Shown piece by piece: positions 6,330 through 16,826 of a DNA stretch of 64,000 bases. Both the position numbers and the translations under genes were made by a program. The notes under the pieces were generated by a model. The model had not been told where the DNA came from, ran no database searches, and saw only the letters and a list, made by a program, of their open reading frames with translations. The stretch's first letter is position 1. Each line of letters starts with the position of its first letter. Source of the DNA: Escherichia coli (GTDB lineage Bacteria; Pseudomonadota; Gammaproteobacteria; Enterobacterales; Enterobacteriaceae); assembly GCF_044324785.1 (NCBI RefSeq), contig NZ_CP172127.1; one strand, 5' to 3'.

Positions 6330-6968
6330 ATGCCCGGGCGCTTTGAACTAAAACCAACCCTGGAGAAAGTCTGGCACGCGCCGGACAATTTTCGCTTCAT
6401 GGACCCGCTGCCGCCGATGCATCGTCGGGGGATCATTATTGCCGCCATTGTATTGGTGGTCGGATTTCTGCTTCCATCTGATGATACGCCCAACGCGCCG
6501 GTGGTGACGCGTGAAGCGCAGTTAGATATTCAGTCGCAATCACAACCGCCGACAGAAGAACAGCTGCGGGCGCAATTAGTCACCCCACAAAATGATCCTG
6601 ATCAGGTGGCTCCGGTCGCTCCAGAACCTATACAGGAAGGCCAGCCAGAAGAGCAGCCGCAAACCACCCAAACGCAACCATTCCAGCCAGATAGCGGAAT
6701 TGATAATCAATGGCGCTCTTACCGTGTCGAACCCGGTAAAACGATGGCGCAGCTGTTCCGCGACCACGGACTGCCCGCTACCGATGTCTATGCAATGGCG
6801 CAGGTAGAAGGCGCGGGTAAGCCGCTGAGTAATTTGCAAAACGGGCAGATGGTGAAAATCCGCCAGAACGCCAGCGGCGTGGTGACGGGCTTAACCATTG
6901 ATACGGGGAATAATCAACAGGTCCTGTTTACCCGCCAGCCGGATGGCAGTTTTATTCGTGCGCGGTAG
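6330..6968 (+). CDS. ytfB: OapA/LysM-domain cell-division-associated protein
   Basis: ORF 6294..6968; 212-aa product from ATG 6330 ([10 protein letters not shown]...); Pro/Gln-rich linker, TM segment. Confidence 0.85.
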
Positions 6969-7623
6969 ATGAAGGATCAACCAAAAGCCAGCTAAGGAGC
7001 GTCTCTTTGATGACCTTACGTCTGGCTTCCAGTGCCTGGGGGGAAACCATACTGATATGATAAACTAGGCCAAGCGTATGCTGGTTGATCAAATAATATC
7101 CCCCAAGCGCAGCAATATTAATATTCACCTGCAATGGGTCGATATCTGGCTTAAAAATATTGTGTTTCTTCCCTTCATCCAATAAGGATTCCATTAACTG
7201 CAAGTGCGCATGGTTAATTTCTAAGAGACGCTGTGATTTTGCATAATGCACACCTTTACTTTGATTTTCACTATGCACAATTTTTAAAAACCAGGGGTTA
7301 GCAATATAATAATCCCATGTAAAATCAATAATTTTCTCAATGGCTTTTTGTGGCGGAAGATCTGAGAAATCAAGGGCCTTTTCTTTTTGTCGAATATCGT
7401 TCCAGGTATATTCCAGTACTTCAATAAATAAATTTTCTTTATTACCAAAGTGATGATAAACCGTCTGTTTACTACACCCCGCAGCCTTAACAATATTATC
7501 GACCCTGGCCCCTTCATAACCATATTCGGCAAATTCATTAACCGCGCATAACAGCAGCTTTTCCTTCAGGCTCTGTACGTTGCTGGTATCAAGATACATA
7601 ACGCTTCCCCACGACCTCTTCAA
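6952..7623 (-). CDS. TetR/AcrR-family transcriptional regulator (full-length; K-12 carries only a remnant, ytfA, as far as I recall)
   Basis: 223-aa ORF with N-terminal TetR helix-turn-helix (...[18 protein letters not shown]...); AT-rich; 3' end overlaps ytfB 3' end by 17 bp; divergent from the downstream operon. Confidence 0.75.
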
Positions 7624-7809
7624 GACAACTATCTTAACCCGATTAATTAGAAGCTCCAGTAAAAAGGATAAAAACTTGTACTTTCATCAAGTTATCAAAT
7701 GTCCTGTGATCACTATCGCATATCAACCAACCAGATGGTTGATCTTTCTTGCGGCACGTCGCAAGCTAATTGTCACTTAGAAACAATATTCAAAAAAGAG
7801 AGCTATTGT

Positions 7810-8601
7810 ATGAAATCCACTCGTCCTGTTGCCGTGATTACCGGAGCCGCTCGTGGTATTGGAAAGGGCTGTGCGCTGGAGCTTGCTCGTGGCGGATTTA
7901 ACCTGCTGATTAACGATCGCCCCGATGATGACAGCGTAGAAAAATTACATGCCACGCAACAGGAATGTCTGGCAGAAGGTGTGGAAGTGATTTGCTTCCC
8001 TGCCGATGTCGGCGATCTCTCCTTGCATGAAGAGATGCTCGACGCGGCACAAAACCAGTGGGGACGTCTGGACTGCCTGCTCAACAACGCAGGCATTTCA
8101 GTGAAAAAACGCGGTGACCTTCTCGACCTCGAACCAGACAGCTTCGACCAAAATATTGCCATTAACACCCGCGCACCGTTCTTCCTCGCTCAGGCATTCA
8201 GTAAGCGCTTACTGGCACAGCCGAAACCGGAAGCAGAACTGCCGCACCGCTCGATTATTTTTGTCAGTTCCATCAACGCCATCATGCTGGCGATGAATCG
8301 CGGCGAATATACCATTGCCAAAACTGCCGTCTCTGCCGCTGCTCGTCTGTTTGCTGCTCGGCTTTGTAATGAACAAATTGGCGTTTATGAAGTGCGTCCT
8401 GGTCTCATCAAAACCGATATGACTATTCCGGCAACGGCCTATTACGACGAACTGATTGCCAAAGGTCTGGTGCCGTGGGGACGTTGGGGTTATCCGGCTG
8501 ATATTGCTTCCACTGTCCGCGCGATGGCGGAAGGTAAACTGATTTACACCTGTGGTCAGGCGGTTGCCATTGACGGCGGCTTAAGTATGCCGCGTTTCTG
8601 A
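7810..8601 (+). CDS. Short-chain dehydrogenase/reductase (SDR)
   Basis: ORF 7699..8601; start at ATG 7810 with upstream aagagag SD; TGAARGIGKG Rossmann motif, NNAG, YxxxK (YTIAK) catalytic motif. Confidence 0.8.
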   Translation: MKSTRPVAVITGAARGIGKGCALELARGGFNLLINDRPDDDSVEKLHATQQECLAEGVEVICFPADVGDLSLHEEMLDAAQNQWGRLDCLLNNAGISVKKRGDLLDLEPDSFDQNIAINTRAPFFLAQAFSKRLLAQPKPEAELPHRSIIFVSSINAIMLAMNRGEYTIAKTAVSAAARLFAARLCNEQIGVYEVRPGLIKTDMTIPATAYYDELIAKGLVPWGRWGYPADIASTVRAMAEGKLIYTCGQAVAIDGGLSMPRF

Positions 8602-8610
8602 GGCTGAATC

Positions 8611-9453
8611 ATGAGAGATCTGTTACAACGCCCGGATTTATTCAGTATCAATACCGCGACACTGGGCTATAAAACGCCGCTTCCCGCCATTATTGATGCC
8701 TGCGCCGCACGCGGTATTGGCGCAATTGCCCCCTGGCGCAGGGAGTTGCAGGGTGAAGATCTCCAGCAAATCGCCCGCCAGCTTGCCGCCAGTAAGATGA
8801 ACGTTTCCGGTTTGTGCCGTAGCACTTACTACACCGCGCCGACACTGGCGGAACGCAAACTGGCGATTGATGATAACCGCCGGGCGCTGGACGACGCAGC
8901 GGTGCTTAACGCCGCCTGTTATATGCAGGTGGTTGGCGGGTTACCGCAGGGAACAAAAGATTTGTACGAAGCGCGGGAACAAGTAAAACAAGGGATTCGC
9001 CAGTTGCTGCCACATTCGAAAGATGTCGGCGTGCCAATTGCGCTGGAGCCGCTGCACCCGATGACTGCTGCCGACCGCTCTTGCCTGTGCACGTTACGTC
9101 AGGCGCTGGACTGGTGTGATGAACTCGATCCCGATGGTGAGTTTGGCCTCGGCGTAGCGGTAGATGTCTACCATGTCTGGTGGGACCCGGATCTCGCCAG
9201 CCAACTCCAGCGCGCCGGAAAACGCATCCTCGCGTTTCATGTTTCCGACTGGTTAGTACCAACCACCGATCTGGTCAATGACCGTGGAATGCCGGGAGAT
9301 GGCGTCATCAATATTCCGTCAATTCGTCGGCTGGTTGAAAACGCCGGATTTAATGGCGCTATTGAACTGGAAATATTCTCGCCGTACTGGTGGCAAAAAG
9401 ATATTAACAGCACGCTGGATATTAGCGTCGATCGCATCGCGCATTATTGCTAA
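8611..9453 (+). CDS. Xylose-isomerase-like TIM-barrel protein (sugar-phosphate isomerase/epimerase family)
   Basis: 280-aa ORF 10 nt downstream of the SDR gene; family assignment by sequence resemblance, not verified. Confidence 0.65.
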   Translation: MRDLLQRPDLFSINTATLGYKTPLPAIIDACAARGIGAIAPWRRELQGEDLQQIARQLAASKMNVSGLCRSTYYTAPTLAERKLAIDDNRRALDDAAVLNAACYMQVVGGLPQGTKDLYEAREQVKQGIRQLLPHSKDVGVPIALEPLHPMTAADRSCLCTLRQALDWCDELDPDGEFGLGVAVDVYHVWWDPDLASQLQRAGKRILAFHVSDWLVPTTDLVNDRGMPGDGVINIPSIRRLVENAGFNGAIELEIFSPYWWQKDINSTLDISVDRIAHYC

Positions 9454-9462
9454 GGAATGATT

Positions 9463-10239
9463 ATGAGTGACCAACCCGTTCTGTTCAGCAGAGCGGCGGC
9501 TTCCTGCCGTCTGACATTGAACCGTGAAGATAAATGTCATGCTATTAATGAAGAGATGATTGAATCTCTCGATCATTATTTAAATGAAATTGAAAACGAC
9601 ACCACATTACGATTAGTCGAATTAACGGCAACCGGCGATAAATTCTTTTGTGCGGGCGGCGATATTAAATCGTGGTCAGCCTATTCGCCATTAGATATGG
9701 GCAGAAAATGGATTAAACGCGGTAATGACGTTTTTAATCGCCTGCGCAACTTACCCCAATTAACCGTTGCAAATCTCAACGGTCATACCATCGGCGGTGG
9801 TATTGAACTTGCTTTGTGCTGCGATATTCGTATTGCCCGTCCCGGCGCGAAATTCTCTAACCCGGAAGTGATGCTCGGCATGGTGCCTGGCTGGATGGGC
9901 ATTGAACGTGTGCTTAATCAGGTCGGTCCGGTGGTCGGTCGCCAGATGCTGATGCTGGGTAAACGCCTGACGGCGCGGGAAGCTCAGGCGGCGAATTTAA
10001 TTGATGAAGTGGTAGAAAAAGAACAGGTGGAAAGCTGGATGGCGAACCAGTTAGCGCAGCTGGAAAAATGTGGTCCGGTGGCGCTCGCACATATCAAGCA
10101 ACTGATTCTGGCACTGGAAAATAAACATGCCGATTACCCGCACCAGCTACTGGCTGGATTAATGTCCGCCACTCAGGATTGCCAGCAGGCGACGCGCGCG
10201 TTTGCCGAAAAAAGTAGCGTGAGCTTCCACAATCAATAA
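9463..10239 (+). CDS. Enoyl-CoA hydratase/isomerase (crotonase) family protein
   Basis: ORF 9457..10239; FFCAGGDIK and GGG/EL crotonase motifs; aagga SD favours ATG 9463. Confidence 0.75.
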   Translation: MSDQPVLFSRAAASCRLTLNREDKCHAINEEMIESLDHYLNEIENDTTLRLVELTATGDKFFCAGGDIKSWSAYSPLDMGRKWIKRGNDVFNRLRNLPQLTVANLNGHTIGGGIELALCCDIRIARPGAKFSNPEVMLGMVPGWMGIERVLNQVGPVVGRQMLMLGKRLTAREAQAANLIDEVVEKEQVESWMANQLAQLEKCGPVALAHIKQLILALENKHADYPHQLLAGLMSATQDCQQATRAFAEKSSVSFHNQ

Positions 10240-10248
10240 GGAAATTGT

Positions 10249-11790
10249 ATGCGTAAGATAACAACCGCCGAGGCACTGGCGGCGCAAATTCAGGACGGCG
10301 CAACCATTGCCATTAGCGGTAACGGCGGCGGCATGGTGGAAGCTGACCATATTATGGCCGCCATTGAAGCGCGTTTCCTGCAAACCGGACACCCTCGCGA
10401 TCTGACATTGATCCACTCGCTGGGTATTGGCGATCGCGACAGCAAAGGCACTAACCGTTTTGCTCACGCCGAAATGCTCAAACGCATTATTGCCGGACAT
10501 TTTACCTGGTCGCCCAAGATGCAGGAACTGGTGAAAAGCAATGCTATTGAAGCCTACTGTTTCCCTGGTGGCGTGATTCAGGCGTTGCTACGGGAGATCG
10601 GTGCCGGACGTCCGGGGCTTTTTACCCACGTTGGGCTGGGATCGTTTGTTGATCCACGCAATGGCGGCGGTAAGTCGAATGAATGCACTACCGACGACCT
10701 GGTAGAACTGATTGAAATCGACGGTGAGACCAAACTTCGTTATCGCCCTTTCAAAGTGGATTACGCGATTTTGCGTGGCACTTATGCCGATCCACGAGGC
10801 AACGTTAGCCTCGAAGAAGAAGCGATTGATATGGATAGCTATTCGATGGCGCTGGCAGCACACAACAGCGGTGGCAAAGTGTTCGTACAGGTACGCGATG
10901 TGCTGGAAGCAGGTGCCATTGAACCACGCCGGGTTAAATTACCGGGGATTCTGGTTGATGGCATCGTTGAACACCGCGAACAGCCACAAACCTATCTTGG
11001 CAGTTACGACCTGACCATCAGCGGCCAACATCGCCGTCTGAGTTCTAACGACGCTATTGAGCTGGTTAGTCATCCGGTGCGTCGCCTGATTGCCCGTCGG
11101 GCAGCGCGGGAACTGGTGGCAGGCGCTTCAACCAACTTTGGCTTTGGTATTCCCGGCGGCATTCCAGGAGTAGCGCTGCGCGAAGGCGTGCCTTACCAAA
11201 GTTTATGGCTGAGCGTCGAGCAAGGCGTGCATAACGGTATGATGCTGGATGATGCGTTTTTCGGCTGCGCCCGCAACGCCGATGCCATTATTCCATCACT
11301 CGATCAATTTGAGTTCTACAGTGGTGGAGGGATCGATATCACCTTCCTCGGCATGGGAGAGATGGATCAGTACGGTAACGTCAACGTATCCCATCTCAAT
11401 GGCAATCTGATTGGCCCCGGCGGATTTCTCGAAATTGCGCAAAATGCCCGTAAAGTGGTGTTCTGCGGCACGTTCGACGCTAAAGGCAGCAAAATCGATA
11501 TAACGCCAGATGGCTTGCATATCGCCCAGTCAGGTCAAATCCCTAAACTGGTTACCCAGGTGGAAAAAATCACTTTTAGCGCCGCCTACGCACAGCAAAG
11601 TGGTCAGGAAGTGTTGTATATCACTGAGCGCGCAGTATTCCAGTTAACGGCAGAAGGCGTTGAATTAATTGAAATCGCGCCGGGTGTAGAGATTGAGCGC
11701 GACATTCTGCCGTTCATGGCTTTCCGTCCAATTATCAAGCACCCACGCCTGATGGAAAGTAGCCTGTTTACGCCGATGGAGGATGCATGA
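10249..11790 (+). CDS. Family-I CoA-transferase (acyl-CoA:acetate/3-ketoacid type, fused subunits)
   Basis: 513-aa ORF; resembles YdiF-like fused alpha/beta CoA-transferases; SD aagga upstream; translationally coupled to flanking genes. Confidence 0.7.
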   Translation: MRKITTAEALAAQIQDGATIAISGNGGGMVEADHIMAAIEARFLQTGHPRDLTLIHSLGIGDRDSKGTNRFAHAEMLKRIIAGHFTWSPKMQELVKSNAIEAYCFPGGVIQALLREIGAGRPGLFTHVGLGSFVDPRNGGGKSNECTTDDLVELIEIDGETKLRYRPFKVDYAILRGTYADPRGNVSLEEEAIDMDSYSMALAAHNSGGKVFVQVRDVLEAGAIEPRRVKLPGILVDGIVEHREQPQTYLGSYDLTISGQHRRLSSNDAIELVSHPVRRLIARRAARELVAGASTNFGFGIPGGIPGVALREGVPYQSLWLSVEQGVHNGMMLDDAFFGCARNADAIIPSLDQFEFYSGGGIDITFLGMGEMDQYGNVNVSHLNGNLIGPGGFLEIAQNARKVVFCGTFDAKGSKIDITPDGLHIAQSGQIPKLVTQVEKITFSAAYAQQSGQEVLYITERAVFQLTAEGVELIEIAPGVEIERDILPFMAFRPIIKHPRLMESSLFTPMEDA

Positions 11791-13859
11791 GTCAGCTTGA
11801 TGACACCATCCTTGATGCGCTGACGCACGTCACTTTCCCAAAGGGGTTTGTGTCAGCAGAGCCAACGTCAATTGTCACCGTTGAGGATGTTGATTACCCG
11901 ATCTGGCAAGTTGATGCGCTGGTCGTTGGTAGCGGCGCAGCAGGATTACGTGCGGCAGTTGAACTTAAACGCCGCCAGCAAAATGTGCTGATCGCCACCG
12001 CCGGGTTATATATGGGGACGTCGGCATGTTCTGGTTCCGATAAACAGACGTTGTTTACCGCCGCTACCGCGGGCAACGGCGACAACTTCGCCAAACTGGC
12101 AGAGGCACTTGCGAGCGGTGGGGCGATGGATCACGACACCGCTTATGTCGAAGCGGTAGGTTCTCTGCACACTCTTGGCGGGTTGCAATATCTTGGTCTG
12201 GAATTACCGGAAGATCGCTATGGCGCGATTCTTCGTTATCAAACCGACCATGACGAAGCCGGGCGTGCAACCTCGTGTGGGCCGCGTACCTCAAGGTTAA
12301 TGGTGAAAGTGCTGCTGGAAGAAGTACAGCGTCTTGCTATCCCAATGTTGACCAGTGCAACAGTGATTAAACTGCTGCATCAGCGTGACGAAAACGGCGA
12401 AGACCGCGTGGCGGGGGCTATCCTCGCGACCGGTCATCGCGCCCATAACCCATGGGGGCTGGCAATTGTGATTGCGCCCAATGTGGTACTGGCAACAGGA
12501 GGGCCTGGCGAGCTTTATCGCGACAGTGTGTACCCACACAAATGTTTCGGCTCGCTGGGTCTGGCGCTGGAGGAAGGTCTGACGCTAACGAATCTGACTG
12601 AAAGCCAGTTTGGTATAGGCACACCGCGCAGCACGTTTCCGTGGAATTTGTCCGGGACTTATGTACAGGTGATCCCATATATCTATTCCGTGGATGCTGA
12701 GGGTAACGAGTATAACTTCCTCGCGGATTACTATCGCACCACCCAGGAGCTGGCTTCAAACATTTTCCGTAAAGGCTATCAGTGGCCGTTCCACGCCACT
12801 CGGGTGATGGATTTTGGCTCCAGCTTGTTAGATATGGCAGTAGCGCAAGAGCAGCAATCAGGGCGTCAGGTATTTATGGATTTCAATCGCAATCCTGAAG
12901 CGGTGCCGGGTGACCTGCCCTTCTCATTAGATCGACTGGACGACGACGTTCGCGCGTATCTGGAAAATAACGACGCTCTGGCACCATCGCCCATCGAACG
13001 GCTGCAACGAATGAATCCGCTGTCTATCTCGCTGTATAAGATGCACGGTTACGATCTCACCACACAGCCATTGCAGTTTGCCATGAATAATCAGCATATG
13101 AATGGCGGCATTGAAGTCGATATCTGGGGACAAACATCTCTACCCGGTTGTTTTGCAGTGGGGGAAGTTGCTGGCACACACGGCGTCACCCGACCTGGCG
13201 GCGCGGCATTGAATGCCGGGCAGGTTTTTGCTGTTCGTCTGGCACGTTTTATTGGTTGCACGCAAAAGCGGAATATTGATGGAGATATAGCACAGCTGGC
13301 AGCTCCGGCACTGGCTTCTATAAGAGAGATCATTACTCAGGCGCACGATAACGGGACCGGGATGCCGTTGTCGGTTGTGAGAGAAAAAATTCAGGCACGA
13401 ATGTCTGACCATGCGGGATTTATTTGTCATGCCGATAAAGTCCGACGCGCCACTCGTGATGCCCTGCTATTGAACGAATTTGTCCAACGGCATGGATTGG
13501 CAATCAAACATGTGGGTGAAGTTTCCGAGCTGTTTATGTGGCGGCATATGGCGCTGACTTCTGCCGCGGTATTAACACAATTAACGCATTATATTGATGC
13601 TGGTGGCGGCAGTCGTGGGGCGCGGATGGTTATTGATCCACAAGGCAAATGCCTACCACAAACTCGTCGCGGCGTAAAAGAAGAATGGCGTTTTCGCTCT
13701 GAACTCGCTGAAGATAAAAATCACAAATTAACAATTCAATATTCGCAAGGTTCTTTTATTACCGAAGTAAAGTCTTTACGTATGCAACCGTGTATTAACG
13801 GTATTTACTTTGAAAAAAACTGGCCAGACTTTTTAAAGGGAGACATTTACACACAATAA
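11787..13859 (+). CDS. FAD-binding oxidoreductase, fumarate reductase/succinate dehydrogenase flavoprotein superfamily
   Basis: 690-aa ORF overlapping the CoA-transferase stop (ATGA); VVGSGAAGLRAA dinucleotide fold at residue ~46 and C-terminal GEVAGTHGVTRPGGAALN motif typical of FrdA/SdhA/NadB. Confidence 0.75.
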   Translation: MSQLDDTILDALTHVTFPKGFVSAEPTSIVTVEDVDYPIWQVDALVVGSGAAGLRAAVELKRRQQNVLIATAGLYMGTSACSGSDKQTLFTAATAGNGDNFAKLAEALASGGAMDHDTAYVEAVGSLHTLGGLQYLGLELPEDRYGAILRYQTDHDEAGRATSCGPRTSRLMVKVLLEEVQRLAIPMLTSATVIKLLHQRDENGEDRVAGAILATGHRAHNPWGLAIVIAPNVVLATGGPGELYRDSVYPHKCFGSLGLALEEGLTLTNLTESQFGIGTPRSTFPWNLSGTYVQVIPYIYSVDAEGNEYNFLADYYRTTQELASNIFRKGYQWPFHATRVMDFGSSLLDMAVAQEQQSGRQVFMDFNRNPEAVPGDLPFSLDRLDDDVRAYLENNDALAPSPIERLQRMNPLSISLYKMHGYDLTTQPLQFAMNNQHMNGGIEVDIWGQTSLPGCFAVGEVAGTHGVTRPGGAALNAGQVFAVRLARFIGCTQKRNIDGDIAQLAAPALASIREIITQAHDNGTGMPLSVVREKIQARMSDHAGFICHADKVRRATRDALLLNEFVQRHGLAIKHVGEVSELFMWRHMALTSAAVLTQLTHYIDAGGGSRGARMVIDPQGKCLPQTRRGVKEEWRFRSELAEDKNHKLTIQYSQGSFITEVKSLRMQPCINGIYFEKNWPDFLKGDIYTQ

Positions 13860-13951
13860 TTTTCAATATTTCCTCTGTACCTGATTTTTATTGCCTATTA
13901 CATGGAAATACCAACAACCAGGGTTTATTAATATAATTAAAAGGTTTAAAA

Positions 13952-15229
13952 ATGAATAAAATAAAGAATTATCGATGGCATATGATTGCCCTCGTATGCT
14001 TTATCACTGTAATCAATTATCTGGACAGAACGGCGTTAGGTATTGCGGCTCCAACGATTATGGAGACAACCGGAATAACTAAAGAGCAATATTCATGGAT
14101 TGTCAGTGCATTCCAGTTGGCCTATACATTAGGGCAACCGGTAATGGGCTTCTTTATTGATACCGTGGGTCTGAAGTTAAGTTTTGCGATATGTGCCGCA
14201 ATTTGGGGCCTGGCGACAATGGGCCATGCACTAACCGGAACGTGGTCTGGTCTGGCATTTATGCGCGCCCTGATGGGTTTCAGCGAAGCGTCGGCAATTC
14301 CGGCGGGTGTAAAAACCGCATCAACATGGTTCCCGGCAAAAGAGCGTGGCGTGGCGACAGGTGTTTTCAATATGGGCACCTCACTCGGCGCGATGCTTGC
14401 TCCACCGTTGATTGCCTGGTGCATTATGTTTCATAGCTGGCAATTTGCGTTTATTGTTTCAGGTAGCCTTGCTTTGCTCGCGGCTTTATTTTGGTTCTTT
14501 TGTTATAAAGATCCGAAAGATGCCAAACGCCTTTCTGATGAAGAGCGCCACTATATTGAATCAGGGCAAGAACAGCATCTTAAAACAGATAAGAAAGAAA
14601 AAACGTCAATCAAGCATATCCTCAGCCAACGTAATTTCTGGGGGATTGGCATCGCGCGTTTTCTCGCAGACCCGGCATGGGGAACCATTAACTTCTGGGT
14701 GCCGATTTTCTTCGTCGAAACGCTGCATTTTAGCCTGAAAGAAATTGCCATGTTCGTCTGGCTGCCTTTCCTGCTGGGCGATCTCGGCTGTTTAGCCAGT
14801 GGTTTTGTCGCGAAGTTCTTCCACGATCGCGGCGTGAGTTTAATTAACTCACGAAGAATTACCTTCACTATTGCAGCCGTCATTATGATGACGATTGGCC
14901 TGGTGAGTATTGTCGAAAATCCCTACATTGCCGTATTACTGATTAGTATTGGCGCGTTCTCGCATCAATGTCTTTCTACTGTAGCAGCAACTCTGGGTGG
15001 CGATCTGTTCAAAAAAGACGAAGTAGCTACCGCAGTGGGTATGGCAGGAGCCTGTGCGTGGAGCGGTCAGTTGATTTTCAACCTGTTCATCGGGGCATTC
15101 GTTCACATTATCGGCTTCGCGCCGTTCTTTATTGCCCTGGCTTTCTTTGACATTATTGGTGCTATTGCGTTGTGGACGCTTATCAAAGTTAAAGATGAAG
15201 AACCGCAAGTACAGCTAGCTACCCATTAA
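13952..15229 (+). CDS. MFS transporter
   Basis: 425-aa ORF with ~12 predicted hydrophobic helices; AT-rich codon usage. Confidence 0.75.
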   Translation: MNKIKNYRWHMIALVCFITVINYLDRTALGIAAPTIMETTGITKEQYSWIVSAFQLAYTLGQPVMGFFIDTVGLKLSFAICAAIWGLATMGHALTGTWSGLAFMRALMGFSEASAIPAGVKTASTWFPAKERGVATGVFNMGTSLGAMLAPPLIAWCIMFHSWQFAFIVSGSLALLAALFWFFCYKDPKDAKRLSDEERHYIESGQEQHLKTDKKEKTSIKHILSQRNFWGIGIARFLADPAWGTINFWVPIFFVETLHFSLKEIAMFVWLPFLLGDLGCLASGFVAKFFHDRGVSLINSRRITFTIAAVIMMTIGLVSIVENPYIAVLLISIGAFSHQCLSTVAATLGGDLFKKDEVATAVGMAGACAWSGQLIFNLFIGAFVHIIGFAPFFIALAFFDIIGAIALWTLIKVKDEEPQVQLATH

Positions 15230-15240
15230 TTATTTTAAAT

Positions 15241-15273
15241 AAAAACGCTATAATTGAGGTTATGGCGTTTTTA
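15241..15273 (+). terminator. Predicted rho-independent terminator after the MFS gene
   Basis: Hairpin acgctataa...ttatggcgt followed by a T-run. Confidence 0.5.
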
Positions 15274-15499
15274 AAGAAGCTTGAGTTATCGAACCTCGCT
15301 TACCAACGCGTTGTCAATCATATCCCCCCTCCCTGCTGCATCGTTATATCCACAATGAGCGATTTTTGATATTAATATCTTTCACCATCCGCTATTTTCA
15401 CTACTTCAGAAAACAAACTTATTTTTATTAATATCGATTCTTTATTCTGTAAACATTCAGCTGAGATATTTATAAAAACATTAAACAGGCAACGATACA

Positions 15500-16294
15500 A
15501 TGACATTACCAACCACTATTTATTCATTTCCTGCATATTCACCCCGTTTTTCGTCCACCGACAAACCAGTAAAATTAAAATTTCATCAATACGCACGCGC
15601 TACATTACTTTCAAATCGTGGAAGAGATCATAATTGCGATGGCAGACATACTGTTGAGATCCACAAACTAGATCTCTCAGACTGGCAAGCATTCAATAAA
15701 CTAGCGATGGCGTGTAATGCTTACGATGGAATAACAATGAATGGTGATAATTCTTTTGGATGGAACCATGAAGCTACATTAGATAATATTCACGCCCAGA
15801 AATACAATAAAGCTTACGCGGGTGCGAGGTTAACCGCAGAACTGAAATATTTATTGCAAGATGTCGAATCCTTCGAACCCAACAGTAAATACACAATACA
15901 CGAGGTTGTTTTGGGTCCAGGTTATGGTACTCCAGACTATACCGGCCAAACGATAGGATACGTTGTAACCCTTCCTGCCCAAATGCCTAATTGCTGGTCA
16001 TCTGAACTACCAACAATCGATCTTTATATCGACCAACTTCGCACTGTTACAGGCGTTTCTAATGCCCTCGGATTCATCATTGCTGCATTGCTAAACGCGT
16101 ATTCTGATTTACCCCATGATTTGAAAATTGGTCTGCGTTCCTTATCAAGTTCAGCAGCAATCTACTCGGGTTTGGGTTTCGAGCGAGTGCCGCAGGGCCG
16201 AGACATAAGGTGCGATCATATGCATCTAACGCCAGCAAACCATCCTGAATTATGGACACAAGAGAATGGTGAATGGATCTACTTGCGAAACTAA
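15500..16294 (+). CDS. yjfZ: DUF2686-family protein of unknown function
   Basis: 264-aa ORF; length and position next to rplI match K-12 yjfZ; AT-rich upstream region. Confidence 0.7.
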   Translation: MTLPTTIYSFPAYSPRFSSTDKPVKLKFHQYARATLLSNRGRDHNCDGRHTVEIHKLDLSDWQAFNKLAMACNAYDGITMNGDNSFGWNHEATLDNIHAQKYNKAYAGARLTAELKYLLQDVESFEPNSKYTIHEVVLGPGYGTPDYTGQTIGYVVTLPAQMPNCWSSELPTIDLYIDQLRTVTGVSNALGFIIAALLNAYSDLPHDLKIGLRSLSSSAAIYSGLGFERVPQGRDIRCDHMHLTPANHPELWTQENGEWIYLRN

Positions 16295-16316
16295 TACCTG
16301 ACGAAAAATAGAAAGC

Positions 16317-16343
16317 AAAACGCCGACCACTGGTCGGCGTTTT
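16317..16343. terminator. Bidirectional rho-independent terminator between convergent yjfZ and rplI
   Basis: Perfect hairpin aaaacgccgaccactggtcggcgtttt with A-run on one side and T-run on the other. Confidence 0.7.
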
Positions 16344-16364
16344 TACGTCTCGTTGAATAACGAA

Positions 16365-16826
<462 letters not shown>

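What the first reader, a model, noticed from the sequence alone, without database searches (positions are those of the whole stretch)
6952..16294. Strain-variable accessory block between ytfB and rplI: TetR regulator plus six-gene operon, not present in K-12
Everything else in the window follows K-12 gene order. From memory, K-12 has only a short ytfA fragment and yjfZ between ytfB and rplI, whereas here there is a full-length TetR gene (6952-7623, minus) and a tightly packed six-gene plus-strand operon (7810-15229) ahead of yjfZ. Intergenic gaps of 10, 9 and 9 nt, one 4-nt overlap and one 92-nt gap indicate a single transcription unit. There are no flanking direct repeats, tRNA, integrase or IS, so this looks like an ancient indel/deletion polymorphism, not a recently mobilised island.
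Basis: partly seen in the sequence, partly recalled or inferred. Interest (0 to 1): 0.6.

Follow-up and report, generated by a model that had tools for sequence, protein, structure and literature searches.

The report
Strain-variable acid-catabolism operon lost in K-12
Between ytfB and rplI this E. coli carries an old, intact, repressor-controlled six-gene operon, probably for breaking down an imported sugar-like acid, which K-12 and about 41% of E. coli have deleted; this is ordinary gene-content variation, but no one has described what the pathway does.

Summary
Window 6952-15229 holds a TetR gene and, divergently, six tightly packed genes: SDR, xylose-isomerase-like TIM barrel, enoyl-CoA hydratase, fused family-I CoA-transferase, FrdA/NadB-like flavoprotein and an MFS anion transporter. 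MG1655 keeps only TetR residues 83-215 (ytfA) and a 95-bp relic of the SDR gene.

Among 5,426 complete E. coli genomes:
- 3,114 carry the enzyme core.
- 1,671 have the MFS transporter.
- 1,446 have a TRAP transporter in its place.
- 2,227 share the K-12 deletion junction.

The same operon lies at the same position in Salmonella, Klebsiella oxytoca and E. albertii. The enzyme genes have dN/dS of 0.02-0.06. The block is therefore ancestral and K-12 lost it. No tRNA, integrase, IS or flanking repeat is present.

Function is inferred only. A conserved palindrome (7722-7743) is the likely TetR operator. Both alternative transporters resemble sugar-acid importers: DgoT for the MFS, and hexuronate-binding proteins for the TRAP. 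Homologues of the flavoprotein often sit beside KdgK- and Eda-like genes. My best guess is catabolism of a uronate-like acid, partly via CoA thioesters. I found no publication on it. Interest is modest.

The parts
6952..7599 (-). TetR-family regulator (215 aa). It is the full-length version of the K-12 pseudogene ytfA. Its 3' end overlaps the end of ytfB by 17 nt.
   Evidence: Pfam TetR_N (3e-14) and TetR_C_29 (1e-29). Annotated as a 648-nt TetR/AcrR gene in strain N3. MG1655 retains residues 83-215 only.
7706..7720 (.). CRP-like site GTGAtcactaTCGCA just upstream of the operator (candidate only).
   Evidence: Both half-sites are conserved in the Escherichia/Salmonella/Klebsiella intergenic alignment. 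The pattern count in the window is not above chance: 2 found, 1.2 expected.
7722..7743 (.). Perfect palindrome ATCAACCA-N6-TGGTTGAT, the candidate TetR operator in the divergent promoter region.
   Evidence: It is unique in the window, with 0.01 matches expected by chance. It is the best-conserved block of the intergenic region across E. coli alleles, E. albertii, Salmonella and K. oxytoca. Related TCAAC..GTTGA motifs occur in the Brenneria, Pseudescherichia and Mangrovibacter loci.
7810..8601 (+). NAD-type classical short-chain dehydrogenase/reductase (263 aa).
   Evidence: NCBIfam NF009386 scores 421 bits against a cut-off of 250. The closest PDB entries are 4one and 4da9, E about 1e-56. The TGxxxGIG, NNAG and YxxxK motifs are readable in the sequence.
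8611..9453 (+). Xylose-isomerase-like TIM-barrel protein ('sugar phosphate isomerase/epimerase', 280 aa).
   Evidence: Pfam PF01261, 1.7e-37. PDB 3qc0/3ju2 (SMc04130, function not assigned), E 7e-85. IolI matches only at 1.7e-6.
9463..10239 (+). Crotonase-family enoyl-CoA hydratase/dehydratase (258 aa).
   Evidence: NCBIfam enoyl-CoA hydratase families match at up to 150 bits, all below their cut-offs. The best PDB hit is 5zai, 3-hydroxypropionyl-CoA dehydratase, 2.5e-40. GGGIELALCCD and NPEVMLG, carrying both catalytic Glu, are readable in the sequence.
10249..11790 (+). Fused alpha/beta family-I CoA-transferase (513 aa), YdiF-like.
   Evidence: PDB 2ahu (YdiF), 5e-115. 40% identical to K-12 YdiF, with Glu324 aligned to YdiF Glu333.
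11787..13859 (+). FrdA/SdhA/NadB-superfamily FAD protein (690 aa) from an uncharacterised family. Its start overlaps the end of the CoA-transferase gene by 4 nt.
   Evidence: Pfam FAD_binding_2, 1.5e-27. NCBIfam TfrA, NadB and FrdA models match far below their cut-offs. The AF2 model has pLDDT 89. Foldseek's best hits are FrdA and SdhA, TM 0.61-0.67, 14-19% identity. 420 clusters at 50% identity match with E<1e-30.
13952..15229 (+). MFS transporter of the anion:cation symporter (D-galactonate/SLC17) type (425 aa). It is one of three alternative transporter cassettes at this slot.
   Evidence: TIGR00893 scores 315 bits. The best PDB hit is DgoT at 2e-40, followed by sialin. Present in 1,671 genomes. 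Replaced by a TRAP system in 1,446 genomes. Only 50% identical to the MFS at the same slot in Salmonella and Klebsiella.
7353..7898 (.). First interval missing in K-12-type genomes: the 5' 40% of the TetR gene, the promoter/operator region and the first ~90 nt of the SDR gene.
   Evidence: blastn against an O16:H48 genome and MG1655.
7899..7993 (+). The segment of the SDR gene that survives in K-12 as a degenerate 95-bp relic, 82-87% identical to extant alleles.
   Evidence: tblastn places SDR residues 21-64 in MG1655, E 1.8e-8.
7994..15330 (.). Second interval missing in K-12-type genomes: the rest of the operon as far as the yjfZ upstream region.
   Evidence: The same junction is present at >=80% coverage in 2,227 genomes.
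15500..16294 (+). yjfZ (DUF2686). It occupies a second variable slot next to rplI and is not part of the operon.
   Evidence: Annotated as yjfZ. Present in 2,522 genomes. Replaced by a hipBA-like pair in 1,041 genomes and by an EamA gene in Salmonella and Klebsiella.

Best explanation
This is an ancestral enterobacterial catabolic operon that survives in about 57% of E. coli. In the K-12-type lineages it was removed by at least two deletions.

Inferred mechanism:
1. The TetR protein probably binds the conserved palindrome at 7722-7743 and represses the divergent operon until a pathway ligand releases it.
2. A proton-coupled MFS anion symporter imports an acidic, sugar-like carboxylate. In the alternative allele a TRAP system does this.
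3. The substrate is most likely a hexuronate-like C6 acid.
4. The five enzymes then convert it. The family-I CoA-transferase makes the thioester. The crotonase adds or removes water at the beta position. The NAD-dependent SDR and the TIM-barrel isomerase/eliminase rearrange keto and hydroxy groups. The FrdA/NadB-like flavoprotein performs an oxidation or reduction next to the carboxylate.
5. The product would feed central metabolism, plausibly through a 2-keto-3-deoxy acid handled by KdgK and Eda encoded elsewhere in the genome.

Shown: gene content, absence from K-12, allele frequencies, synteny in other genera, purifying selection and operator conservation.

Inferred: repression, the single transcript, the substrate class, the order of reactions and the end product.
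For: Evolution:
- MG1655 has only TetR residues 83-215 and an SDR relic.
- The enzyme core is in 3,114 of 5,426 genomes, the MFS in 1,671, the TRAP system in 1,446 and the K-12 junction in 2,227.
- The same gene order lies between ytfB and rplI in Salmonella, K. oxytoca and E. albertii.
- Protein identities to Salmonella are 87-93%, like the flanking ytfB. dN/dS is 0.02-0.06 for the SDR, TIM, hydratase and CoA-transferase genes.
- No mobility features are present.

Regulation:
- TetR_N and TetR_C_29 domains are present.
- The palindrome is unique in the window and is the best-conserved intergenic block.

Substrate class:
- The MFS is closest to DgoT and then sialin.
- The binding protein of the TRAP allele is closest to 4ovr, 4x8r and 4n8y, E 1e-72 to 1e-68. 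PMC11668362 states that 4X8R binds glucuronate and 4N8Y binds galacturonate.
- TRAP homologues also sit next to flavoprotein homologues in distant phyla (L017, L043, L070).
- Flavoprotein homologues with 52-56% identity sit directly upstream of KdgK-like and Eda-like genes in Rhizobiales and Rhodobacterales. Planctomycete homologues (36-41%) sit in SDR-Eda-FAD-kinase clusters.

Enzyme competence:
- The catalytic Glu of the CoA-transferase is conserved.
- Both crotonase Glu residues and the SDR motifs are present.
- The flavoprotein has the FrdA fold.
Against: - No experiment or publication bears on this operon.
- The E. coli locus has no kinase, aldolase or thiolase, so the end product is unknown.
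- The flavoprotein scores far below every curated FrdA, NadB and TfrA cut-off. By eye it lacks the equivalents of FrdA His232 and Arg287, so its chemistry is uncertain. No electron-transfer partner is encoded nearby.
- SDR, TIM and flavoprotein occur together without the CoA enzymes in Brenneria, Pseudescherichia and PVC bacteria. The CoA steps are therefore an add-on, and the proposed order of reactions is a guess.
- Brenneria's transporter is PcaK-like, an aromatic-acid type.
- The TRAP binding-protein match corresponds to family-level similarity only, not proof of ligand.
- The single-transcript claim rests on spacing. The consensus promoter scan found nothing convincing in 7600-7810.
Confidence: 0.6

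Rival explanations
1. The block is a horizontally acquired island inserted between ytfB and rplI in some E. coli, and the K-12 state is the ancestral empty site.
For: The TetR gene and yjfZ are AT-rich, 37-41% GC. Allele diversity is unusually high: 88-97% identity between E. coli alleles against 98-100% in the flanks. Transporter cassettes have clearly been swapped.
Against: K-12 retains the 3' part of the TetR gene and a relic of the SDR gene. The same operon lies at the same site in Salmonella, Klebsiella and E. albertii, with identities like those of the flanking genes. There is no tRNA, integrase, IS or direct repeat.
Confidence: 0.03
2. The operon is a short- or medium-chain acyl beta-oxidation-like module, as the automatic names suggest (3-ketoacyl reductase, enoyl-CoA hydratase, acetate/3-ketoacid CoA-transferase, with a flavoprotein acting as the desaturase). 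It would act on a small hydroxy or unsaturated acid such as 3-hydroxypropionate, acrylate or crotonate.
For: The CoA-transferase resembles YdiF and Staphylococcus FadX. The hydratase is closest to 3-hydroxypropionyl-CoA dehydratase and short-chain enoyl-CoA hydratases. Related loci L017 and L074 add MaoC, acyl-CoA dehydrogenase and ETF genes. The TetR protein has a weak hit to the acrylate regulator AcuR.
Against: There is no thiolase and no acyl-CoA dehydrogenase. A xylose-isomerase-like TIM barrel is present and conserved with the SDR and flavoprotein even where the CoA enzymes are absent. Both transporter types resemble sugar-acid importers. Flavoprotein homologues associate with KdgK and Eda.
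Confidence: 0.15
3. The operon acts on a hydroaromatic or alicyclic acid such as quinate, shikimate or a cyclohexene-carboxylate. It would use oxidise-dehydrate-reduce chemistry on CoA thioesters, analogous to carnitine (cai) or bile-acid (bai) dehydroxylation, possibly as an anaerobic electron sink.
For: The enzyme classes match that logic: SDR, TIM-barrel dehydratase-like protein, crotonase, CoA-transferase and an FrdA-like ene-reductase. Brenneria pairs SDR-TIM-FAD with a PcaK-like aromatic-acid transporter. L017 has an acyl-CoA dehydrogenase resembling cyclohexane-1-carbonyl-CoA dehydrogenase, plus ETF. A natural OYE-FrdA-like fusion (P0150) and adjacent OYE-FeS flavoenzymes suggest C=C reduction. 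A ring carboxylate with several hydroxyls would resemble a pyranuronate to a binding protein (my inference).
Against: No AroD, AroE or YdiB homologue occurs in any of about 80 related loci. The TIM barrel does not match known dehydroshikimate dehydratases in the PDB at E<=0.01. The KdgK/Eda association of homologues points to open-chain sugar acids.
Confidence: 0.15

Closest known systems
K-12 ytfA pseudogene locus (rplI-yjfZ-ytfA'-ytfB)
   Same: Same chromosomal site. ytfA is the 3' 133 codons of the TetR gene found here, 99% identical.
   Different: K-12 lacks the TetR N-terminus, the promoter/operator and all six operon genes apart from a 95-bp SDR relic.
Hexuronate / unsaturated-uronate catabolism (ExuT, UxaC-UxuAB, KduI-KduD, KdgK-Eda; hexuronate TRAP systems)
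   Same: The transporter families match: an anion:cation-symporter MFS, and a TRAP binding protein close to glucuronate and galacturonate binders. The SDR is of the general KduD type (116 bits). Flavoprotein homologues are linked to KdgK- and Eda-like genes.
   Different: There is no UxaC, UxuA or KduI homologue. CoA-transferase, crotonase and an FrdA-like flavoprotein have no counterpart in the known uronate routes. No kinase or aldolase lies in the E. coli locus.
E. coli carnitine (cai) pathway
   Same: The logic is shared: CoA-transferase, then crotonase-type dehydratase, then flavin oxidoreductase, acting on an imported hydroxy-acid. This comparison rests on established knowledge of the cai operon, not on a test run here.
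   Different: CaiB is a family-III transferase and CaiA is an acyl-CoA dehydrogenase. Here the transferase is family I (YdiF-like) and the flavoprotein is FrdA/NadB-like. The cai pathway has no SDR or TIM-barrel partner.
K-12 ydiN-ydiB-aroD-ydiF-ydiO-ydiQRST cluster
   Same: It contains the closest E. coli paralogue of the CoA-transferase (YdiF, 40% identity). It has the same general make-up of transporter, dehydrogenase and CoA enzymes, and its physiological role is also unknown.
   Different: Different site. It uses an acyl-CoA dehydrogenase with ETF in place of an FrdA-like protein, and has no TIM barrel. YdiB and AroD have no homologues in the loci studied here.
FrdA/SdhA/NadB flavoproteins and soluble NADH:fumarate/acrylate reductases with OYE-like domains
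   Same: Same fold. The residues aligned by eye with FrdA His355 and Arg390 are conserved (H437 and R469, invariant). Some relatives are fused to, or adjacent to, OYE-like flavoenzymes.
   Different: Only 14-19% identical. Scores fall far below the curated cut-offs. There is no Fe-S subunit gene. The capping-domain motif KGYQWPF is specific to this family. No member has a known substrate.

Membership tests
Mobile genomic island | Integrase, transposase or IS at a boundary | tested here: not met
   No such ORF or family hit lies in 6900-16400. IS609 occurs only in some deletion-type genomes.
Mobile genomic island | tRNA/tmRNA integration site and flanking direct repeats | tested here: not met
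   No tRNA found. Only 16-21-nt imperfect repeats, not at the boundaries.
Mobile genomic island | Empty site in sister taxa | tested here: not met
   The operon lies at the same site in Salmonella, K. oxytoca and E. albertii.
TetR-family repressor with divergent target operon | N-terminal TetR HTH plus C-terminal ligand domain | tested here: met
   TetR_N 3e-14 and TetR_C_29 1e-29.
TetR-family repressor with divergent target operon | Palindromic operator in the shared intergenic region | tested here: met
   A perfect palindrome with 8-nt arms at 7722-7743, conserved across genera.
TetR-family repressor with divergent target operon | DNA binding relieved by a ligand | not testable with these tools
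   Needs EMSA or reporter assays.
Family-I CoA-transferase (YdiF type) | Fused alpha/beta fold and catalytic glutamate | tested here: met
   2ahu at 5e-115. Glu324 aligns with YdiF Glu333. The role of Glu333 is taken from my own knowledge of the YdiF structure paper.
Crotonase enoyl-CoA hydratase | Superfamily fold and two catalytic Glu | tested here: met
   Hits. The motifs are readable in the sequence. No curated equivalog cut-off is reached, so specificity is unassigned.
Classical SDR | Model above cut-off; TGxxxGxG, NNAG and YxxxK motifs | tested here: met
   NF009386 scores 421 bits against a cut-off of 250. The motifs are in the sequence. The name '3-ketoacyl-ACP reductase' is a label, not a tested activity.
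Fumarate reductase / succinate dehydrogenase / L-aspartate oxidase (as enzymes) | Score above curated family cut-off | tested here: not met
   Best is TfrA at 124 bits against 718. NadB scores 99 against 453. FrdA scores 43 against 854.
Fumarate reductase / succinate dehydrogenase / L-aspartate oxidase (as enzymes) | Adjacent Fe-S subunit (FrdB/SdhB) | tested here: not met
   None in the operon.
FrdA/SdhA/NadB structural superfamily | FAD_binding_2 domain and four-domain fold | tested here: met
   PF00890 at 1.5e-27. Foldseek TM 0.61-0.67 to FrdA and SdhA.
Known hexuronate pathways (Uxa/Uxu, Kdu) | UxaC/UxuA/KduI-type enzymes, or KdgK/Eda in the locus | tested here: not met
   None among the NCBIfam hits for the six proteins. 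KdgK and Eda appear only in loci of distant homologues.
Known hexuronate pathways (Uxa/Uxu, Kdu) | Transporter specific for a hexuronate | tested here: inconclusive
   The TRAP binding protein's best hits are hexuronate binders, E 1e-72. The MFS is closest to DgoT. No binding data exist.
Quinate/shikimate catabolism | Dehydroquinase or shikimate/quinate dehydrogenase in the locus | tested here: not met
   No AroD or YdiB homologue in any related locus.

The most novel reading that the evidence does not exclude
The operon encodes an undescribed route for a uronate-like sugar acid. A CoA-transferase/crotonase pair would carry out a thioester-assisted beta-elimination. An uncharacterised FrdA/NadB-like flavoenzyme family would supply the key redox step. 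That family has at least 420 clusters at 50% identity and is spread through Proteobacteria, Planctomycetota, Lentisphaerota and Verrucomicrobiota. Because K-12 deleted the operon, the pathway has escaped classical E. coli genetics.
Probability: 0.3. Interest if true: 0.6.

Novelty: new member of a known kind. Interest (0 to 1): 0.35.

Why it matters
Each genome has a different metabolic capacity at this site. About 31% of E. coli import the unknown substrate through an MFS transporter, about 27% through a TRAP system, and about 41% cannot use the pathway at all. If the substrate comes from the host or the diet, for example a uronic-acid derivative, the locus could affect gut niche partitioning among strains.

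The conserved SDR, TIM-barrel and FrdA-like flavoprotein trio is widespread and has no assigned reaction. E. coli strains that carry it would be a convenient genetic system for working that reaction out.

As an evolutionary case, the locus gives a clean example of an ancestral operon decaying by stepwise deletion, with relics left behind, and of repeated transporter-cassette replacement at an operon's 3' end.

Tried and rejected
1. Deoxyribonate pathway of Klebsiella michiganensis. I recalled it as a CoA-dependent acid-sugar cluster, but the paper (PMC6365646) describes a different gene set: CoA synthetase, hydroxyacyl-CoA dehydrogenase, thiolase and glycerate kinase.
2. Literature searches. 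I searched for ytfA/yjfZ, for PDB codes 7VPF, 3QC0 and 3JU2, for SMc04130, and for combinations of the annotation names. These gave only a survey noting that ytfA is variable among E. coli (PMC6790063).
3. Quinate/shikimate idea. I searched about 80 related loci with K-12 YdiB and AroD and found no hits.
4. Metagenome contigs carrying distant flavoprotein relatives were too short to be informative.
5. Neighbour annotation in the Lentisphaeria and Coraliomargarita loci returned mostly housekeeping genes.
6. The Rfam scan found nothing.
7. The consensus promoter and terminator scan was at or below chance.
8. The structure search of the flavoprotein returned only generic FrdA, SdhA, NadB and AprA folds, so it gave no substrate clue.
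9. The CRP-like site is conserved but is not statistically distinguishable from chance within the window.

Full report
**What is there**

The window is E. coli DNA with the order cycA-fklB-ytfB on the left and rplI-rpsR-priB-rpsF on the right. Between them lie eight genes.

| Coordinates | Strand | Product | Main evidence |
|---|---|---|---|
| 7810-8601 | + | SDR | NF009386 421 bits, cut-off 250 |
| 8611-9453 | + | Xylose-isomerase-like TIM barrel | PF01261; 3qc0/3ju2, function unassigned, E 7e-85 |
| 9463-10239 | + | Crotonase | |
| 10249-11790 | + | Fused family-I CoA-transferase | YdiF structure 2ahu, 5e-115 |
| 11787-13859 | + | FrdA/NadB-like flavoprotein | PF00890 |
| 13952-15229 | + | MFS transporter, D-galactonate/anion-symporter type | |
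| 15500-16294 | + | yjfZ | |

Spacers within the operon are 9, 9 and 9 nt, then a 4-nt overlap, then 92 nt. All six operon genes are full length compared with their orthologues.

**Is it absent from K-12?**

Yes. The MG1655 record shows rplI-yjfZ-ytfA(pseudogene)-ytfB. By tblastn it contains only TetR residues 83-215 (99% identical), YjfZ, and a weak match to SDR residues 21-64.

At the DNA level, homology to the window stops at about 7352 and resumes at about 15331. The 105 bp that lie between these points in K-12 are not random filler. They align with window 7899-7993, inside the SDR gene, at 82-87% identity to several alleles.

K-12 therefore descends from a full locus that lost 7353-7898 and 7994-15330 in at least two events. 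A 301-bp probe across the K-12 junction is found at >=80% coverage in 2,227 of 5,426 complete genomes, at 92-100% identity. One old deletion allele has therefore spread widely.

**Population picture**

| State | Genomes (of 5,426) |
|---|---|
| Enzyme core 7700-13600, >=80% coverage | 3,114 |
| MFS transporter | 1,671 |
| Three-gene TRAP system replacing MFS and yjfZ | 1,446 |
| K-12-type deletion junction | 2,227 |

The TRAP replacement has breakpoints at about 13619, inside the 3' end of the flavoprotein gene, and at 16312. MFS-type, TRAP-type and deletion-type together account for 5,344 of 5,426 genomes.

A second variable slot lies next to rplI. It holds yjfZ in 2,522 genomes, a hipBA-like pair in 1,041, or nothing (H4). 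The window's own combination, MFS plus yjfZ, is a minority; by subtraction it occurs in roughly 300 genomes.

Alleles differ by 3-12% within the operon but by 0-2% in the flanks. The window differs from its closest relative, strain N3, almost only in a patch at 12800-13600, where identity falls to 77%. This points to recombination between old haplotypes.

**Ancestral or acquired?**

The same TetR|SDR-TIM-ECH-CoAT-FAD-MFS arrangement sits between ytfB and rplI in Salmonella enterica and Klebsiella oxytoca. E. albertii carries TetR through the flavoprotein gene at the same left flank, cycA-fklB-ytfB.

Protein identities to Salmonella are 87-93% for TetR, SDR, TIM, hydratase and CoA-transferase. 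This is similar to flanking YtfB at 84%. dN/dS for these enzyme genes is 0.02-0.06.

There is no tRNA, no flanking repeat and no integrase or IS. The block is therefore ancestral and K-12 lost it.

The transporter is the exception. The E. coli MFS is only 50% identical to the MFS at the same slot in Salmonella and Klebsiella. Including the TRAP system, the 3' transporter position has therefore been replaced at least twice.

**Regulation (inferred)**

The regulator has TetR_N and TetR_C_29 domains. The 210-bp divergent intergenic region contains a perfect palindrome, ATCAACCAaccagaTGGTTGAT, at 7722-7743. It is unique in the window. It is also the most conserved intergenic block across E. coli alleles, E. 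albertii, Salmonella and Klebsiella. Related TCAAC...GTTGA motifs occur upstream of the homologous SDR genes in Brenneria, Pseudescherichia and Mangrovibacter. This is the likely operator.

A CRP-like GTGA-N6-TCGCA motif lies immediately upstream at 7706-7720 and is conserved in the same alignment. By count it is not above chance.

**What the enzymes suggest**

- The CoA-transferase keeps the glutamate aligned with YdiF Glu333.
- The crotonase has both catalytic glutamates, and the SDR has the classical NAD-type motifs (sequence).
- The flavoprotein folds like FrdA and SdhA: AF2 pLDDT 89, Foldseek TM 0.61-0.67, 14-19% identity.
- It scores far below every curated FrdA, NadB and TfrA cut-off and has no Fe-S partner gene.
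- By eye it keeps the His/Arg pair corresponding to FrdA His355 and Arg390 (H437 and R469, invariant). It lacks the capping-domain His232 and Arg287 equivalents, carrying instead a family-specific KGYQWPF motif.
- Its family is large, with 420 clusters at 50% identity matching at E<1e-30, and it is uncharacterised.

**Context in other genomes**

I examined about 80 loci encoding relatives of the flavoprotein.

- The commonest neighbour is a homologous SDR, in 25 of 72 loci. Next come the TIM barrel and Gfo/Idh/MocA dehydrogenases.
- Brenneria has TetR|SDR-TIM-FAD followed by a PcaK-like transporter.
- Pseudescherichia, Mangrovibacter and Phytobacter have TetR|SDR-Gfo-TIM-MFS-FAD.
- In Rhizobiales and Rhodobacterales the flavoprotein (52-56% identical) follows a levoglucosan-dehydrogenase-like Gfo/Idh/MocA gene and precedes KdgK-like and Eda-like genes. 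A sugar ABC transporter, two GMC oxidoreductases and a LacI regulator lie beside them.
- In Phycisphaerae it sits in clusters of OYE-FeS flavoenzyme, SDR, Eda, an unknown gene, FAD and a kinase.
- One relative, P0150, is a natural fusion of an OYE-like domain and the FrdA-like domain.
- CoA-transferase and crotonase accompany the flavoprotein only in some lineages: the E. coli type, L017, L041, L050, L056 and L074. In L017 they come together with MaoC, an acyl-CoA dehydrogenase, ETF and a TRAP system.
- TRAP homologues adjoin the flavoprotein in a Bacillota MAG, where they form almost the whole operon (L070). They also do so in a Rhizobiales MAG (L043).

**Substrate class**

Both E. coli transporter alternatives point to acidic sugars. 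The MFS is nearest to DgoT and then to sialin. The TRAP binding protein's best solved relatives are 4ovr, 4x8r and 4n8y, E 1e-72 to 1e-68. PMC11668362 states that 4X8R binds glucuronate and 4N8Y binds galacturonate. My recollection that most of the other top hits are also hexuronate complexes is unverified.

Taken with the KdgK/Eda linkage of homologues, the best-supported reading is catabolism of a hexuronate-like acid. The CoA-transferase and crotonase would perform a thioester-assisted beta-hydration or elimination, in the way CaiB and CaiD do for carnitine (established knowledge, an analogy only). The SDR, TIM barrel and flavoprotein would rearrange and oxidise or reduce the carbon skeleton.

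The order of steps, the exact substrate and the product are not established. I put about 45% on the sugar-acid class.

**Rivals**

- A short-chain acyl or hydroxy-acid module, as the automatic gene names imply. The TIM barrel, the transporters and the lack of a thiolase count against it.
- A hydroaromatic or alicyclic acid pathway. It is chemically attractive and fits Brenneria's PcaK-like transporter and the OYE and acyl-CoA-dehydrogenase partners. However, no AroD or YdiB homologue occurs in any related locus, and the TIM barrel does not match known dehydroshikimate dehydratases.
- A recent island insertion. The relics in K-12 and the synteny in other genera effectively exclude it.

**Novelty and verdict**

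That ytfA is a pseudogene in K-12 and is variable among strains is already recorded (PMC6790063). PGAP annotates all the genes generically. I found no publication on the operon's function.

The finding is real and correctly interpreted, but it is a common kind of event: an ancestral catabolic operon lost in some lineages. What remains open is the biochemistry of the conserved SDR/TIM/FrdA-like core. I score interest at 0.35 and class the finding as a new member of a known kind.

Noticed in passing
window 15270-16312 (yjfZ slot); L004 10876-12637; L090 13444-14379: The segment between the transporter gene and rplI is a second cassette site. It holds yjfZ in 2,522 E. coli genomes and a hipBA-like toxin-antitoxin pair, often frameshifted or hit by an IS, in 1,041. 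Some MFS-type genomes have nothing there. Salmonella and Klebsiella have an EamA transporter gene.
   Followed up: partly
window ~7059 (equivalent position); L005 2616-4245: In O157:H7-like and other deletion-type genomes, an IS609 (IS200/IS605 family, tnpA plus tnpB) is inserted inside the remaining TetR (ytfA) fragment.
   Followed up: partly
window 12800-13600: Compared with its closest complete genome (strain N3), the window is about 100% identical across the block except for this patch inside the flavoprotein gene, at 94% and then 77%. The patch matches other alleles at 96-99%. It is a recombination mosaic.
   Followed up: partly
window 13952-15229 vs L090 12127-13404 and L092 12128-13405: The MFS transporter is only 50% identical to the MFS at the same operon position in Salmonella and Klebsiella, while the upstream enzymes are 87-93% identical. 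The transporter slot has been replaced repeatedly; the TRAP system is a third variant. The last ~80 codons of the flavoprotein gene travel with the cassette.
   Followed up: partly
protein P0150 (metagenomic relative); loci L067, L075, L077, L079, L081-L083: One relative of the flavoprotein is fused to an N-terminal OYE-like FMN domain. Phycisphaerae loci place an OYE-FeS-NAD(P) flavoenzyme next to SDR-Eda-FAD-kinase. This hints that the family works as an electron-accepting C=C or C-X reductase.
   Followed up: partly
window 6952-6968: The 3' ends of ytfB (+) and the TetR gene (-) overlap by 17 nt. This convergent overlap is preserved in K-12, Salmonella and Klebsiella.
   Followed up: no
proteins P0006 and P0029 (E. 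coli): Some E. coli records carry a single ~1,050-1,080-aa ORF joining most of the CoA-transferase to the flavoprotein. This is probably an indel near the 4-nt overlap at 11787-11790, not a designed fusion.
   Followed up: no
window 7000-7500 and 15000-16000: The TetR gene (37% GC) and the yjfZ region (39-41% GC) are much more AT-rich than the enzyme genes (48-56% GC).
   Followed up: no
L093 (MG1655 1,772,512-1,784,677): K-12's ydiN-ydiB-aroD-ydiF-ydiO-ydiQRST-fadK cluster contains the closest paralogue of the CoA-transferase. It has a similar transporter/dehydrogenase/CoA-enzyme make-up, and its physiological role is likewise unknown.
   Followed up: partly
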